From an uncultured Eubacteriales bacterium (lineage in GTDB: Bacteria > Bacillota > Clostridia > Oscillospirales > CAG-272): DNA of 64,000 nt. Shown piece by piece: positions 50,269 to 53,852 of the stretch. Positions within the stretch are counted from its first letter, which is position 1; every line of letters starts with the position of its first letter. The notes below the pieces were generated by a model that worked only from the letters and a program-made list of their open reading frames with translations, was not told where the DNA came from and did no database searches. The stretch is from assembly GCA_948467545.1 (NCBI GenBank), contig CAOKER010000013.1, positions 3,694-67,693 of the forward strand, given 5' to 3'. The position numbers and the translations under genes were made by a program.

Positions 50269-52848
50269 TTAATTGTTTTTTTGTTTTTCCGTCTGACGCT
50301 CTCCGATACTTGAGAGCGGTTGCTTCTTCAGCTTCTCTATGATTTCCCCGATCCTTTTTTCAGCGTCTTTTACCTCCCGTTCAAACTCGGCTGCCGACAT
50401 TCTCATAACGCCTGACCGCAAAGCTGAAATTTGAATTAAATAATCCGAAGAAACGATCCTCACGCGGTCGTTTTTTTTATACATTGCCGCGAGCCTTTCT
50501 ATATATGCGTCTCCGGTTTCATTCTTTTTGGTATAGACAATTTGAATTCCTTTGAATTCATATATCTTGTCGGAGGAGCATTCGGTGTTGTATGCGTCAA
50601 AAACGAGAATAAGACGCAGCTTTTTAAAAGCAGCAAAATTTACAAGAATATCTGTCAGGCGCATTCTTGCATGTTCAAGGCTGTCTTTGGCAAGCTTTTT
50701 CAGCTCTTCCCAGGAAAAAATAACATTATAGCCGTCAATAATCAGAAGCTCTGTTTTTTGAGCGTCTATATATCCGGAAGGAGTCTCGTCCTTTTTTACT
50801 TCGGGTAATTTATATATAGGCCGATTTATAGGTCCAAGGACACGAAGCATTATATTTTCAAGCTCTTTTTCTGATATCGCGGAAGCTCGTTTTCTTTCCT
50901 GTTTTTCCTGCTTATTCATTTTAGCGAGCGTGTATGGGATGTGCATATATTTGTGTACCTGATTCCATTTTACCGTGAATCCGGAGCCGTGTTCGCAAAA
51001 TACAGAATCAGGCGTATTGTCTGTGTCCCGCTCCGGATCGTATCCGATACGGGCAACTGCCTCCTGTGTGTTATGGCAGCTGTCATATCCGGCAAATTCA
51101 AGAGACAGCTTTCCGCATCCTCCTGTATAAGCTGCCACGGTGGTTTGATAGTTGTTTATAGTGCTGACCGGCGCTTTTCCTCTCAGGATATAATCGGCTC
51201 CGTTCTGTTCAGGCTCTCCGAAGCTTCCGTGCATCATTTGGATGTCATTCATCGCTCTGCCCAGTGTATTACCTGGAATTTGAAGTATGAATGTATAGTA
51301 TGGTTCAAGAAGTACCGAATGAGCATTCATTAGTCCGCATCGAAGCGCGCGCATGGAGGCTTCTCTGAAATCTCCGCCTGCGGTATGCTTTATATGTGAT
51401 TTGCCGGCAATAAACGTAATTTTAATATCGGTTATTTTTGAACCTGTAAGCACACCGGGATGACTTCCGCTCTGAAGTGCGGACATGACTTGCGCTATGT
51501 ACTGCGGTTCAATAGAATCCGTGGGACATTGGACGTCGTATATAATTCCGCTTCCTCGCGGAAGCGGTGTCAGAATAAGGTGAACTTCGGAATAGTGGCG
51601 TAGAGGTTCGTAATGACCGACTCCTTCGGTTTCGCTTTGAATAGTTTCGCGGTAGACGACATGATCGGGAATTATTTCAGTTTGAAGATTGAATCTGCTC
51701 AGGATAAGCGACTGCAGAATTTCTGCCTGTATTGAGCCCATAAGGAGTACGCGAATTGACCTTGAATCCGAATTCCATTCGATGTTAAGCTGCGGCTCCT
51801 CTTCTTCAAGCTGTTTCAGCTTTTTTATTTCTTTTGCCGGATCACTTCCTGAGGGCAGCTTAATTTGATATCTCATAACGGCTTCAAGCATTGGTTTCGG
51901 CTTGTTTTCCTCCAATCCGAGACCGTCGCCGCACATTGTCCGGGACAGACCGGTGACTGCACAAATATCTCCGGCATGTGCCTCGTCGATTGTTTTAAAC
52001 CTGATACCGGAATATTTTCTTATCTGAGATATCTTTTCCTCTTTTCCGCGCGTGGAAACACTGTCCCGCACAGCAAGTTTTCCCCCTGTAATTTTTAAAT
52101 GGGTTTCTCTTCTTCCGTCCGCTCCGTATGTGATTTTGTATACCTTCGCGCCGAAAATGTCAGAGTATTCAACAGGGATGGCGTATTTGTCAAGCATGTC
52201 GATAAAGCTGTCGATACCTGTCATCTTCAGTCCAGAACCGAAGGAACAAGGAAATATTTTTCTTTGTCTGACGGCCTCGACAACGGATGAATCTGAAATT
52301 ATACCGGTGTTTGTGTAGCTGTCGAGAATGTTTTCATCCCTAAGTGCAATATTGTCATTTTTTTGACTTCCTGTCTTGTCGGAAAAGTTGATGCATCCGT
52401 CGGAAAGCTCAGACTGTAAGGACTTCATGAGTTCTTTTTCCGTGTATGCGCAATAGTCCATTTTGGTTACGAATATAAAAACGGGAATTTCATAATGCGC
52501 AAGCAGCTTCCAAAGTGTTCTTGTATGCGGCTGAACGCCGTCTGTACCGCTGATGACGAGAATTGAGTAGTCAAGAATAGGAAGAATTCTTTCGGTTTCT
52601 GCAGAAAAATCTATATGTCCGGGTGTGTCGATAAGATTTATCTCCTTGTCGCCGGCTGTAAAGCTGCTTTCACCTGAAAATATTGTAATTCCTCGGTTTT
52701 TTTCAAGCTCATGTGAATCGAGAAGCGTGTTTCCGCAATCCACCCGTCCGGCTTTTCTCAGTTTTCCGGAACGGTAGAGTATTGCCTCGGCAAGAGTTGT
52801 TTTTCCGGCGTCAACATGTGCGGTTATGCCAATTGTTATTTTTTTCAT
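50269..52848 (-). CDS. Tet(M)/EF-G-like translational GTPase fused to C-terminal YacP/Rae1-type NYN domain
   Basis: G1 AHVDAGKT, G2 RGITI, G3 DTPGH, G4 TKMD, with domains II-V readable. The last ~160 aa (50272-50754) match YacP motifs (IIDGYNVIFSW, ILVFDA, YTKKNETGDAYIERLA, VSSDY). The track ORF extends to 52992; ATG 52848 gives the usual MKKITIGITAHVDAGKT start. Confidence 0.8.
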   Translation of the reverse strand: MKKITIGITAHVDAGKTTLAEAILYRSGKLRKAGRVDCGNTLLDSHELEKNRGITIFSGESSFTAGDKEINLIDTPGHIDFSAETERILPILDYSILVISGTDGVQPHTRTLWKLLAHYEIPVFIFVTKMDYCAYTEKELMKSLQSELSDGCINFSDKTGSQKNDNIALRDENILDSYTNTGIISDSSVVEAVRQRKIFPCSFGSGLKMTGIDSFIDMLDKYAIPVEYSDIFGAKVYKITYGADGRRETHLKITGGKLAVRDSVSTRGKEEKISQIRKYSGIRFKTIDEAHAGDICAVTGLSRTMCGDGLGLEENKPKPMLEAVMRYQIKLPSGSDPAKEIKKLKQLEEEEPQLNIEWNSDSRSIRVLLMGSIQAEILQSLILSRFNLQTEIIPDHVVYRETIQSETEGVGHYEPLRHYSEVHLILTPLPRGSGIIYDVQCPTDSIEPQYIAQVMSALQSGSHPGVLTGSKITDIKITFIAGKSHIKHTAGGDFREASMRALRCGLMNAHSVLLEPYYTFILQIPGNTLGRAMNDIQMMHGSFGEPEQNGADYILRGKAPVSTINNYQTTVAAYTGGCGKLSLEFAGYDSCHNTQEAVARIGYDPERDTDNTPDSVFCEHGSGFTVKWNQVHKYMHIPYTLAKMNKQEKQERKRASAISEKELENIMLRVLGPINRPIYKLPEVKKDETPSGYIDAQKTELLIIDGYNVIFSWEELKKLAKDSLEHARMRLTDILVNFAAFKKLRLILVFDAYNTECSSDKIYEFKGIQIVYTKKNETGDAYIERLAAMYKKNDRVRIVSSDYLIQISALRSGVMRMSAAEFEREVKDAEKRIGEIIEKLKKQPLSSIGERQTEKQKNN

Positions 52849-52925
52849 TCTTATAACCGTGCCTTTAATCAGAATATCTGAAGTTTTTACATAAGGCTTT
52901 GATTTAAGCCTGTCGGCGGTGATTT

Positions 52926-53852
52926 TTATTTTAAAAGGAGAGTAATTATCGGAATTGTAATAAAGCATAAAACCGTGCTGACGAGAAGGCATCTTGCCGC
53001 CATATCCGGTTCGCTTTCATGAATTTCGGAAAGCGCAAGGATGACCGAAGCGCACGGAGTCGCCGCAAGAATTGTGACGGCAGAGCGGAATACCGGAGAT
53101 ACCGGAAGCAGGCAAGACGCGGCAAAGCAGAAGCATGGAAAAACTAAAAGCTTCATGAAACATATTATATATACAATCGGTTTGCAGAAAACCGCTTTAA
53201 GTTTTGTCGAAGCAAGGCGAATTCCGAGTATAAACATACATAGAGGGGTTGAAATATCGGCGATGGTATCAATGGCGCCGATAAGCGGATTCGGAAGAAT
53301 GTTCTTTACCCCGAAGATGTAAAAGGGAAGAGCGATTACAAATCCGAATATTGTCGGATTTAACAATGCGCTTTTTACCGAAATATATTTTTTGTCATTT
53401 GTAAGGCAGAATACTCCGACGGTAAATATGAGAATATTCATTGTTACCATATTTACGGCGCAGTAGCACGCCACCTCAGGATTGTCGGGCAGAAGCGCCC
53501 GTGTTATCGGCATACCGAAAAATCCGACGTTTCCGAGAACTGAAGCAATTGTAAGAAGTCTGTATTTGCTTTCCGAGTATCTGTGTTTCAGAATAAGATA
53601 AAGAATAAGCATAAATACGCTCTGAAGACAGAACGATACGATAAAAAATTTGATCATTTCTACGGTTTCCGACATGGAAAAATCCAGTGACATGAAAGCC
53701 GAAATTTCAAGAAAGGGGGTACAGATGTAAATAAGAATTCCGGACAGAGTTTGCAGATGAGCTTCGGAGGCTTTATTCATCTTTCGGATGACAAACCCCG
53801 GAATCATGTAAAAGAGTGTGACAAGTACGGTGGACAGCGATATACTAAACAT
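52926..53852 (-). CDS. AEC (auxin efflux carrier) family transporter
   Basis: 308 aa, ~10 TM helices, AEC-like N-terminus (LFYMIPGFVIRK). Confidence 0.75.
   Translation of the reverse strand: MFSISLSTVLVTLFYMIPGFVIRKMNKASEAHLQTLSGILIYICTPFLEISAFMSLDFSMSETVEMIKFFIVSFCLQSVFMLILYLILKHRYSESKYRLLTIASVLGNVGFFGMPITRALLPDNPEVACYCAVNMVTMNILIFTVGVFCLTNDKKYISVKSALLNPTIFGFVIALPFYIFGVKNILPNPLIGAIDTIADISTPLCMFILGIRLASTKLKAVFCKPIVYIICFMKLLVFPCFCFAASCLLPVSPVFRSAVTILAATPCASVILALSEIHESEPDMAARCLLVSTVLCFITIPIITLLLK

What the first reader, a model, noticed from the sequence alone, without database searches (positions are those of the whole stretch)
50269..52848. Single ORF fusing a Tet(M)/EF-G-like ribosomal GTPase to a YacP/Rae1-type NYN ribonuclease domain
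Seen in the sequence: there is one uninterrupted minus-strand ORF. The N-terminal ~640 aa carry all translational-GTPase motifs (AHVDAGKT, RGITI, DTPGH, TKMD). They read like Tet(M)/Tet(O)-type ribosomal protection proteins through domain V (VLLEPYYTFILQIPGNTLGRAMND). After a ~60-aa Lys/Glu-rich linker, the last ~160 aa (50272-50754) match my recollection of B. subtilis YacP/Rae1 motif by motif. The pairs are LLIIDGYNVIFSW vs LLVDGYNMIGAW, LILVFDA vs VIVVFDA, IVYTKKNETGDAYIERLA vs VIFTKENETADERIEKLA, and VSSDY vs ATSDY. Established knowledge: EF-G/Tet(M)-family factors dock at the ribosomal A site and GTPase centre. Rae1/YacP has been described as a translation-dependent endoribonuclease acting on mRNA in the ribosome. 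Inference: covalent coupling would deliver the nuclease to the A site under GTP control. That would make this a candidate ribosome-rescue, mRNA-surveillance or stress/defence effector. I am not aware that this architecture has been characterised.
Basis: partly seen in the sequence, partly recalled or inferred. Interest (0 to 1): 0.8.

Follow-up and report, generated by a model that had tools for sequence, protein, structure and literature searches.

The report
EF-G/Tet-like GTPase fused to Rae1 nuclease
This gene really does encode one protein joining a ribosome-binding GTPase to an intact Rae1-type RNA-cutting domain, but the fusion is a large family already noted in 2015 and 2017 and never tested experimentally, so this is a new member of a known but uncharacterised kind.

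Summary
Window 50269-52848 (-) is one uninterrupted 859-aa ORF. It contains GTP_EFTU, EF-G domains II-V, a conserved 43-aa C-terminal extension, a 63-aa charged linker and NYN_YacP (E=1.4e-41). All G motifs, catalytic His78 and the four NYN aspartates are present. These include the equivalents of B. subtilis Rae1 D7 and D81, and all are invariant or nearly so in 85 divergent family members.

The architecture is not new. Atkinson 2015 and Matelska 2017 both reported Tet-like/NYN_YacP fusions in Clostridia. This protein aligns end to end with their examples (46% to C. thermocellum, 43% to R. albus 7). I found at least 84 full-length clusters at 50% identity, in at least three orders of Clostridia. 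No functional study was found.

It is not a bona fide Tet(M) protein. It scores far below the curated cut-offs, lacks the TetM loop III tip, and sits among chromosomal housekeeping genes.

Domain IV of the same chain would occupy that site, and Rae1 is now thought to cut about 12 nt upstream of it, on collided ribosomes.

Best reading: a GTP-dependent ribosome-docking module tethers an active Rae1-type nuclease that cuts mRNA outside the A site on stalled or collided ribosomes.

The parts
50269..52848 (-). Whole gene: 859 codons plus a TAA stop, encoding the trGTPase-NYN fusion protein
   Evidence: ORF list. The start is supported by the family consensus. Coordinates verified by translation. 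The database gene call P0001 (899 aa) uses an upstream start that would overlap the neighbouring gene.
52180..52839 (-). G domain (aa 4-223), with P-loop AHVDAGKT (K16), switch I RGIT, DTPGH (catalytic H78) and TKMD (D131)
   Evidence: PF00009, E=2.8e-47. D13, G15, K16, D74, G77, K129 and D131 are kept in 85/85 and H78 in 84/85 divergent family members.
51922..52143 (-). EF-G domain II (aa 236-309)
   Evidence: PF22042, 28 bits against a cut-off of 27. Confident beta-barrel in the AF2 model.
51673..51885 (-). EF-G domain III (aa 322-392)
   Evidence: PF14492, 21.7 bits (below the cut-off of 27 here, above it in many homologs). Foldseek matches EF-G and TetM over ~690 columns.
51322..51663 (-). 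EF-G domain IV (aa 396-509), with family-specific tip loops. Loop I is G409-V-G-H412-Y-E-P-L-R-H418-Y-S-E-V. Loop III is H485-I-K487-H488-T-A-G-G-D493-F-R.
   Evidence: PF03764, E=5e-16. It is the most conserved domain of the family (0.68). H412, E414, P415, L416, E421, H488 and D493 are kept in 85/85. H485 aligns with the EF-G 'GSYH' histidine and K487 with TetM Pro509.
51067..51315 (-). EF-G domain V (aa 512-594)
   Evidence: PF00679, E=6e-17.
50938..51066 (-). Conserved C-terminal extension of the GTPase module (aa 595-637). Its motif begins within the end of domain V at G587-Y-x-x-C591-H: GYDxCHN...Y603-D-P...D608...S615-x-F-C618-x-H620-G...W628...M-H636.
   Evidence: Y603, S615 and F617 are kept in 85/85; D608 and G621 in 84/85; C591 in 75, C618 in 79, H620 in 66 and H636 in 81 of 85. 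No Pfam family matches. It is also present in the NYN-less L. salivarius paralog, which ends right after it. AF2 confidence here is low to moderate.
50749..50937 (-). Flexible charged linker (aa 638-700), with one conserved short helix at ~660-672 (KELExI..R..G)
   Evidence: Mean column conservation is 0.29. Its length varies from 60 to 192 aa (median 78) across the family. AF2 pLDDT is below 50 at 644-658 and 675-697, with a helix at 660-671. 37% of residues are charged.
50311..50748 (-). Rae1/YacP-type NYN endoribonuclease domain (aa 701-846), with catalytic D705, D751, D780 and D802
   Evidence: PF05991, E=1.4e-41. Aligns with B. subtilis YacP structures 5MQ8/5MQ9 at E=5e-21. D705 and D780 align with Rae1 D7 and D81, the pair mutated in the published catalytic-dead D7N D81N protein. 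D705, Y707, N708, D751, T773, D780 and D802 are kept in 85/85. AF2 pLDDT is ~86-88 in the core.

Best explanation
The gene encodes a chromosomal, housekeeping-type translation factor. An EF-G/Tet-like, ribosome-dependent GTPase acts as a docking and sensing module, and a catalytically competent Rae1-type NYN endoribonuclease hangs from it on a long flexible tether.

Proposed mechanism:
1. The GTP form binds the factor-binding site of a problem ribosome (stalled or collided). Its highly conserved, family-specific domain IV tip inserts into the 30S A site or decoding centre.
2. The tether is 60-190 aa long across the family. It lets the NYN domain reach mRNA outside the A site. The target could be the mRNA entry side of the same ribosome. 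Alternatively, if the GTPase sits on the trailing ribosome of a collided pair, it could be the exposed mRNA at the inter-ribosome interface, where free Rae1 is now thought to cut.
3. Cleavage produces a truncated mRNA, which allows rescue by trans-translation. GTP hydrolysis then releases the factor.

In effect, the transient ribosome association of free Rae1 is replaced by a covalent, GTP-gated delivery module.

Shown: the architecture, the intact GTPase and nuclease catalytic residues, strong constraint on the domain IV tip, the flexible and variable linker, the chromosomal non-mobile context, and a wide and deep distribution in Clostridia.

Inferred: ribosome binding, mRNA as the substrate, which ribosome state is recognised, and the link to tmRNA.
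For: - Architecture and E-values.
- The G motifs and catalytic His78 are invariant or nearly so in 85 sequences that are only 37-50% identical.
- The NYN aspartates are invariant, including the equivalents of Rae1 D7 and D81, whose D7N D81N mutant is catalytically dead.
- Domain IV is the most conserved domain, with near-invariant tip loops that differ from both EF-G and TetM.
- The linker is poorly conserved, variable in length and predicted to be disordered.
- The GTPase+extension module also exists alone, at 45% identity, in L. salivarius, so the parts are modular.
- Neighbours are housekeeping genes and are not conserved between orders, with no mobile-element or defence genes (PADLOC).
- Free Rae1 cleaves mRNA in a translation-dependent way, ~12 nt upstream of the A site of stalled ribosomes, and feeds collided ribosomes to tmRNA (PMC12407103; PMC13622287).
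- The family is large: 206 clusters at E<=1e-30, and 84 full-length fusions among the best 150.
Against: - No experiment exists for any member. Ribosome binding, GTPase activity and RNase activity are all inferred from homology.
- The AF2 inter-domain geometry is unreliable (pTM 0.48), so the reach of the NYN domain was not modelled on a ribosome.
- The substrate could be rRNA or tRNA rather than mRNA.
- I could not test whether genomes with the fusion lack a stand-alone rae1. That test would distinguish a replacement from an extra specialised paralog.
- The closest characterised relatives of the GTPase part are antibiotic-resistance proteins, so a drug-related role is not excluded.
Confidence: 0.5

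Rival explanations
1. It is a tetracycline (or other A-site antibiotic) ribosomal protection protein, and the added RNase contributes to resistance. This was Atkinson's 2015 suggestion. The GTPase would dislodge the drug as Tet(M) does, and the nuclease would destroy mRNAs on drug-stalled ribosomes.
For: The best PDB and NCBIfam matches are TetM/TetO and tet_protect. The reduced G' insertion and the C-terminal extension resemble Tet proteins. TetM loop III tolerates substitutions provided the loop conformation is kept (PMC4750697). Erythromycin-induced collisions are handled by free Rae1, so a link to antibiotic stress is plausible.
Against: It scores far below the curated cut-offs: 408.9 against 775 for tet_protect, and 289.8 against 1100 for TetM/W/O/S. 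TetM Y506-Y507-S508-P509-V510 is replaced by S-H-I-K-H, and loop I also differs. The gene lies among housekeeping genes with no transposon or plasmid context in five loci from three orders. The deep divergence (37-50% identity) is unlike recently spread resistance genes.
Confidence: 0.12
2. The nuclease targets ribosomal RNA or tRNA rather than mRNA. The GTPase would dock on the ribosome so that NYN can process or inactivate rRNA, in ribosome maturation, quality control or turnover. This follows the older prediction that YacP belongs to an rRNA/tRNA processing set.
For: [quoted passage not shown] The tether starts next to rRNA-rich sites: the decoding centre, H69 and the GTPase centre.
Against: Every experimentally mapped Rae1 substrate is a translated mRNA. 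The fusion gene is not linked to rRNA-processing genes in any locus examined.
Confidence: 0.15
3. It is an anti-phage or stress 'suicide' effector that shuts down translation by cutting RNA on ribosomes when triggered.
For: The 2026 preprint speculates that Rae1 could act on phage mRNAs that stall ribosomes. A PHROG family (6880) matches the GTPase part at 436 bits. Two 'Bacteriophage sp.' records carry the fusion.
Against: PADLOC gives 0 hits. The phage record I examined is UNVERIFIED and its neighbours are ordinary bacterial genes. There are no defence-island neighbours. It is a single-copy conserved chromosomal gene across orders of Clostridia.
Confidence: 0.05
4. The A-site delivery model exactly: the GTPase places the NYN domain in the decoding centre, and it cuts the A-site codon.
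For: The original 2017 Rae1 model docked free Rae1 in the A site (summarised). RelE and Cue2 are precedents cited there.
Against: Domain IV of EF-G and TetM itself fills the 30S A site (established structural knowledge), and here it is the most constrained domain. The same laboratory has withdrawn the Rae1 A-site model in favour of cleavage ~12 nt upstream.
Confidence: 0.08

Closest known systems
Tet-like/NYN_YacP fusion proteins of Clostridia, listed by Atkinson 2015 (Additional file 8: R. albus 7 YP_004106010, C. thermocellum YP_001036467, E. rectale, E. eligens, B. proteoclasticus, C. cellulolyticum, C. lentocellum, L. phytofermentans, D. hafniense) and noted by Matelska 2017
   Same: The domain order is the same. 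Homology runs end to end: 46% identity to C. thermocellum and 43% to R. albus 7. The same domain IV loops (GHFEPLRHYAEVHL, RAHxKHTEGGDFR), the same extension motif and the same NYN catalytic motifs are visible in the published sequences.
   Different: This is a different lineage. The nearest database relatives are 82-84% identical, uncultured, Ruminococcus-like Clostridia. Its linker is at the short end of the range (63 aa). G4 reads TKMD rather than the NKMD usual in the family.
B. subtilis Rae1/YacP (PDB 5MQ8, 5MQ9), the ribosome-associated endoribonuclease
   Same: The NYN_YacP fold is the same, with 34.5% identity over 142 aa. All four active-site aspartates are kept, including D7 and D81.
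   Different: Rae1 is a free protein of ~170 aa, encoded in the gltX...yacO-yacP operon, and binds ribosomes only transiently. Here the domain is covalently tethered to a trGTPase, and the gene lies in an unrelated context.
Tet(M)/Tet(O) ribosomal protection proteins (PDB 3J9Y, 4V6V)
   Same: Both have the five-domain EF-G-like architecture. These are the best sequence matches, at 1.6e-70 over residues 1-589. Both have a C-terminal extension after domain V.
   Different: The protein scores below every curated Tet cut-off. The loop III tip YYSPV is replaced by SHIKH, and loop I also differs. The extension is longer and has its own conserved motif. The gene is chromosomal and not on a mobile element.
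EF-G
   Same: The fold is the same (Foldseek E~1e-50). The G motifs are shared, and the histidine at the tip of domain IV (GSYH in EF-G) aligns with H485.
   Different: It scores below the EF-G cut-offs (253.8 against 659.4). The G' insertion is smaller. Loop I reads GHYEPLRHY rather than the Gly-rich EF-G loop.
Collision and no-go nucleases SmrB (E. coli) and Cue2 (yeast), and the Hbs1-Dom34 GTPase-delivery system
   Same: This is a functional analogy only. SmrB and Cue2 cut mRNA at stalled or collided ribosomes to enable rescue. In Hbs1-Dom34, a translational GTPase delivers a rescue factor to a stalled ribosome (my own knowledge).
   Different: The nuclease folds are unrelated (SMR domain versus NYN). 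In those systems the nuclease is not fused to a GTPase.

Membership tests
Tet-like/NYN_YacP fusion family (Atkinson 2015; Matelska 2017) | A single polypeptide with a five-domain EF-G/Tet-like trGTPase followed by a C-terminal PF05991 domain | tested here: met
   Pfam scan. Uninterrupted ORF.
Tet-like/NYN_YacP fusion family (Atkinson 2015; Matelska 2017) | Full-length homology to published members | tested here: met
   46% identity over 870 columns to C. thermocellum and 43% over 864 columns to R. albus 7.
Rae1/YacP NYN ribonucleases (PF05991) | Match to the NYN_YacP model above the gathering score | tested here: met
   142.7 bits against a cut-off of 24.6, E=1.4e-41. PDB 5MQ8/5MQ9 at E=5e-21.
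Rae1/YacP NYN ribonucleases (PF05991) | Catalytic aspartates present (Rae1 D7 and D81, plus the FDA and SD aspartates) | tested here: met
   D705, D751, D780 and D802 align with them. All are kept in 85/85 family members. The D7N D81N mutant is the published catalytic-dead form.
Rae1/YacP NYN ribonucleases (PF05991) | Stand-alone single-domain protein in the gltX-cysS-mrnC-yacO-yacP neighbourhood | tested here: not met
   The domain is fused to a GTPase. Neighbours are an AEC-type transporter, MntP and IMPDH. The canonical operon is described.
Rae1/YacP NYN ribonucleases (PF05991) | Translation-dependent endonucleolytic cleavage of mRNA | not testable with these tools
   Needs biochemistry or in vivo cleavage mapping.
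Tet(M)/Tet(O)-type ribosomal protection proteins | Score above the curated NCBIfam cut-offs (tet_protect 775; TetM/W/O/S 1100) | tested here: not met
   408.9 and 289.8 bits respectively.
Tet(M)/Tet(O)-type ribosomal protection proteins | Domain IV loop III tip (TetM L505-Y-Y-S508-P509-V510) that overlaps the tetracycline site | tested here: not met
   The aligned residues are K-S-H-I-K-H. The role of Pro509 and loop III is taken from PMC7456112 and PMC4750697.
Tet(M)/Tet(O)-type ribosomal protection proteins | Confers tetracycline resistance | not testable with these tools
   Needs MIC assays.
Tet(M)/Tet(O)-type ribosomal protection proteins | Five-domain EF-G-like fold with an active G domain | tested here: met
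EF-G (translocase) | Score above the curated EF-G cut-offs | tested here: not met
   TIGR00484 gives 253.8 against 659.4; NF009381 gives 299.9 against 583.
EF-G (translocase) | EF-G-type domain IV tip loops | tested here: inconclusive
   The loop with the conserved histidine aligns (H485 with GSYH), but loop I is GHYEPLRHY rather than the Gly-rich EF-G loop.
Known anti-phage defence systems | Match to a PADLOC model, or a defence-island context | tested here: not met
   0 PADLOC hits. Neighbours are housekeeping genes.

The most novel reading that the evidence does not exclude
The fusion is a GTP-gated collision or stall nuclease. Its EF-G-like module would recognise a specific ribosome state through the invariant, family-specific domain IV tip. 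One candidate state is the trailing, rotated ribosome of a collided pair, which EF-G cannot translocate. The module would then position the tethered Rae1 domain at the inter-ribosome mRNA. That would be a covalent bacterial counterpart of GTPase-delivered rescue combined with no-go decay. Because the GTPase can be locked on the ribosome (a non-hydrolysable GTP analogue, or an H78 mutant), it would also give the first structural view of how a Rae1-type nuclease engages the ribosome.
Probability: 0.25. Interest if true: 0.75.

Novelty: new member of a known kind. Interest (0 to 1): 0.45.

Why it matters
Since 2025, Rae1 has become a central player in bacterial ribosome-collision rescue. How it recognises ribosomes is unknown, because its binding is too transient for structural work. 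This family is a natural experiment in which the same nuclease is permanently tied to a ribosome-binding GTPase. It is present in cultured and partly tractable species such as C. thermocellum, C. cellulolyticum and A. rectalis.

Testing it could show where a Rae1-type domain acts on the ribosome. It could also reveal a GTP-controlled form of mRNA surveillance in gut and rumen Clostridia.

On the practical side, these proteins are often auto-annotated as 'TetM/TetW/TetO/TetS family tetracycline resistance' proteins. That label is probably wrong and may inflate resistome counts.

Tried and rejected
- **Genome-contig scan.** I used a single protein as query instead of an alignment.
- **Co-occurrence with a stand-alone rae1 in the same genome.** This could not be tested. 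The window has no second NYN copy, but it is only 64 kb. I tried the Monoglobus 'plasmid' records as a proxy for a whole genome. The other records are tiny fragments and the chromosome is not in the collection.
- **Phage origin.** Two 'Bacteriophage sp.' hits were found. The one I examined is UNVERIFIED and has bacterial neighbours, so I rejected this.
- **Defence system.** PADLOC found nothing.
- **Extension and linker (585-700).** No Pfam family matches even at E<=10.
- **Rfam.** The whole window gives no match at gathering scores.
- **Transcription signals.** Promoter-like and terminator-like sites occur at about the chance rate, so no operon statement is made beyond the 78-nt gap to the upstream transporter gene.
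- **Papers not held.** Leroy 2017 (PMC5412759) and Condon 2018 (PMC6152456) could not be read. They may mention the fusion.
Full report
**1.

Window 50269-52848 (minus strand) is an uninterrupted ORF. The longest possible ORF starts at 52992. The ATG at 52848 (MKKITIGITAHVDAGKT) coincides with the consensus N-terminus of the family, and gives 859 aa plus a TAA stop.

Pfam finds these domains:
- GTP_EFTU, aa 4-223, 2.8e-47
- EF-G domain II, aa 236-309
- EF-G domain III, aa 322-392 (marginal score)
- EF-G domain IV, aa 396-509
- EF-G domain V, aa 512-594
- NYN_YacP, aa 702-846, 1.4e-41

The C-terminal domain aligns with the crystal-structure sequence of B. subtilis YacP/Rae1 (5MQ8/5MQ9) at E=5e-21.

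The single-ORF fusion is not a sequencing artefact. All 120 best database homologs (51-84% identity, ~850-865 aa) have the same Pfam set.

**2. Both catalytic centres are intact and under selection**

I used two alignments. One has 46 close homologs. The other has the query plus 84 full-length representatives of 50%-identity clusters. In that second set the GTPase parts are only 37-50% identical to the query and the NYN parts 32-50%.

- The P-loop (D13, G15, K16), D74 and G77 of the DTPGH motif, and K129 and D131 are kept in 85/85. The catalytic H78 is kept in 84/85.
- The NYN residues D705, Y707, N708, D751, T773, D780 and D802 are kept in 85/85.
- D705 and D780 correspond to Rae1 D7 and D81. 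The D7N D81N double mutant is the published catalytically dead Rae1 (PMC10351889).

All three were tested and none holds.

**3. Anatomy beyond the Pfam domains**

Domain IV is the most conserved part of the family. Mean column conservation is 0.68, against 0.58 for the G domain, 0.54 for NYN and 0.29 for the linker. Its two tip loops are almost invariant and are specific to this family:
- Loop I is G-x-G-H412-[FY]-E-P-L-R-H418-Y-A-E-V.
- Loop III is H485-x-K487-H488-T-x-G-G-D493-F-R.

In pairwise alignments, H485 falls on the conserved histidine of EF-G (GSYH). K487 falls on TetM Pro509, the residue that clashes with tetracycline. The TetM tip YYSPV is absent.

After domain V comes a conserved extension, whose motif begins at about residue 587, within the end of domain V, and which runs to 637. 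Y603, S615 and F617 are kept in 85/85 and D608 and G621 in 84/85. C591, C618, H620 and H636 are kept in 78-95% of sequences. It matches no Pfam family.

Next comes a charged linker. It is 63 aa here and 60-192 aa across the family (median 78), and AF2 predicts it to be largely disordered. It contains one short conserved helix at ~660-672.

The AF2 model has confident domains but unreliable inter-domain geometry (pLDDT 75.9, pTM 0.48). Foldseek matches EF-G and TetM over ~690 columns.

**4. Distribution and context**

An exhaustive search with the last 264 aa found 3124 clusters at E<=1e-3 and 206 at E<=1e-30. Of the best 150, 84 are at least 800 aa long with the match at the C-terminus. Most of the shorter ones begin inside the extension and look like fragments.

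Named sources of the fusion:
- Acutalibacteraceae and unclassified Clostridia MAGs
- an uncultured Clostridiales MAG at 82% identity
- Agathobacter rectalis (Lachnospirales) and Monoglobus pectinilyticus (Monoglobales), on records labelled as plasmids that carry map, secA and other housekeeping genes
- the ten genomes in Atkinson's list, including R. albus 7, C. thermocellum and D. hafniense

Gene neighbourhoods:
- An 83%-identical relative shares this window's neighbourhood: AEC-type transporter, fusion gene, MntP, IMPDH.
- A 58% relative on a 2.4-Mb contig has different neighbours, and so do the A. rectalis and Monoglobus loci.
- No mobile-element, resistance or defence genes recur.
- Dockerin genes near the close relatives point to a Ruminococcus-like cellulolytic host.

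A 639-aa paralog on Ligilactobacillus salivarius megaplasmids is 45% identical over the whole GTPase module. It includes the extension and stops just after it. The GTPase+extension unit therefore exists without NYN.

The window has no second NYN copy and no second EF-G/Tet paralog.

**5. It is already in the literature, but only as an observation**

[quoted passage not shown] He suggested a novel resistance mechanism and provided the sequences.

Matelska et al. [quoted passage not shown]

The window protein aligns end to end with those sequences: 46% identity to C. thermocellum and 43% to R. albus 7.

Searches for functional work found nothing. Two potentially relevant Condon-lab papers are not held in the library.

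**6. What it is not**

It is not a bona fide Tet(M)-type resistance protein:
- It scores 408.9 bits against the curated cut-off of 775, and 289.8 against 1100 for the TetM/W/O/S model.
- It is only marginally closer to TetM (241 bits) than to EF-G (221 bits).
- The loop III tip differs, and the gene context is chromosomal.

It is not EF-G either (253.8 against 659.4).

A defence role has no support. PADLOC gives 0 hits. The 'phage' record I examined is UNVERIFIED and surrounded by bacterial genes.

**7. How it most likely works**

Established knowledge:
- EF-G-family factors bind the ribosomal GTPase centre and insert domain IV into the 30S A site.
- Rae1 is a translation-dependent mRNA endonuclease.

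Current evidence places Rae1 cleavage ~12 nt upstream of the A site, at the tail end of a stalled ribosome. It links Rae1 to collided ribosomes and tmRNA rescue. The earlier A-site docking model has been given up by its authors (PMC12407103; PMC13622287).

Domain IV of the same chain would fill the A site, and it is the most constrained domain in the family. The tethered NYN domain therefore cannot plausibly sit there at the same time.

The best-supported reading is that the GTPase module is a GTP-gated docking and sensing device, and that the flexible tether lets NYN cut mRNA outside the A site. One possible target is the mRNA entry side of the bound ribosome. Another applies if the factor binds the trailing ribosome of a disome. 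In that case NYN could reach the inter-ribosome mRNA where free Rae1 is thought to act.

This is inference. No member has been tested, and no docking was possible with these tools.

**8. Verdict**

The protein is a new member of a known, uncharacterised fusion family, not a new architecture.

Its interest is moderate. It lies in the fact that the family offers a natural, trappable version of Rae1 on the ribosome, at a time when no ribosome-bound Rae1 structure exists. It also matters that many members are probably mis-annotated as tetracycline-resistance proteins.

Noticed in passing
L006:2321-4240 (Ligilactobacillus salivarius plasmid NZ_CP101686.1); 33 L. salivarius plasmid records hit: A 639-aa 'TetM family' protein is 45% identical to the GTPase part of the fusion. 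It includes the conserved C-terminal extension (CHN...FCAHGAGYTVDW...MH) and ends right after it, with no NYN domain. The GTPase+extension module therefore exists on its own, on megaplasmids of a lactobacillus.
   Followed up: partly
window 50941-51078 (aa 591-636): The extension after domain V has a conserved Cys/His pattern: C591 in 75, C618 in 79, H620 in 66 and H636 in 81 of 85 sequences. S615 and F617 are invariant. It could be a small metal-binding module, but no Pfam family matches it and AF2 confidence there is low.
   Followed up: partly
window 52849-52992: The database gene call for this protein (P0001, 899 aa) uses an upstream start codon. That start, like the maximal 907-aa ORF, would overlap the 3' end of the upstream transporter gene (52926-53852). 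The family alignment supports the ATG at 52848 instead.
   Followed up: yes
Clostridioides difficile plasmids of 96-150 kb (e.g. NZ_CP149721.1:48827-49306): Twelve C. difficile plasmid records carry a stand-alone 'NYN domain-containing protein' that is 40.6% identical to the fused NYN domain. Listeria, Staphylococcus and Enterococcus 'phage' records also carry stand-alone Rae1-like genes. Rae1-type nucleases may therefore travel on mobile elements.
   Followed up: no
L008:5516-6024 (Agathobacter rectalis NZ_CP143948.1): In A. rectalis, the 933-aa fusion gene is transcribed divergently from a BrnT/CopG toxin-antitoxin pair lying immediately upstream. This pairing was not seen in the other loci.
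   Followed up: no
NZ_CP143948.1 (251 kb) and NZ_OY725736.1 (518 kb) in the plasmid collection: These records are labelled as plasmids but carry core housekeeping genes (methionyl aminopeptidase, secA, GatB/YqeY). They are probably chromosome fragments or secondary chromosomes rather than plasmids. The Monoglobus assembly also has 'plasmids' of 589-3773 bp with no genes.
   Followed up: partly
phrog_6880 ('translation elongation factor'): A PHROG family matches residues 1-638 of the protein at 436 bits, which is higher than the best NCBIfam Tet model. The family was probably built from bacterial DNA in viral-fraction contigs, such as the UNVERIFIED record MT835563.1.
   Followed up: partly
L001:15159-16769, L003:2376-3854 and L003:12763-14508: Dockerin-domain proteins lie near the fusion gene in the close relatives, which suggests a cellulosome-producing, Ruminococcus-like host for this window's lineage.
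   Followed up: no
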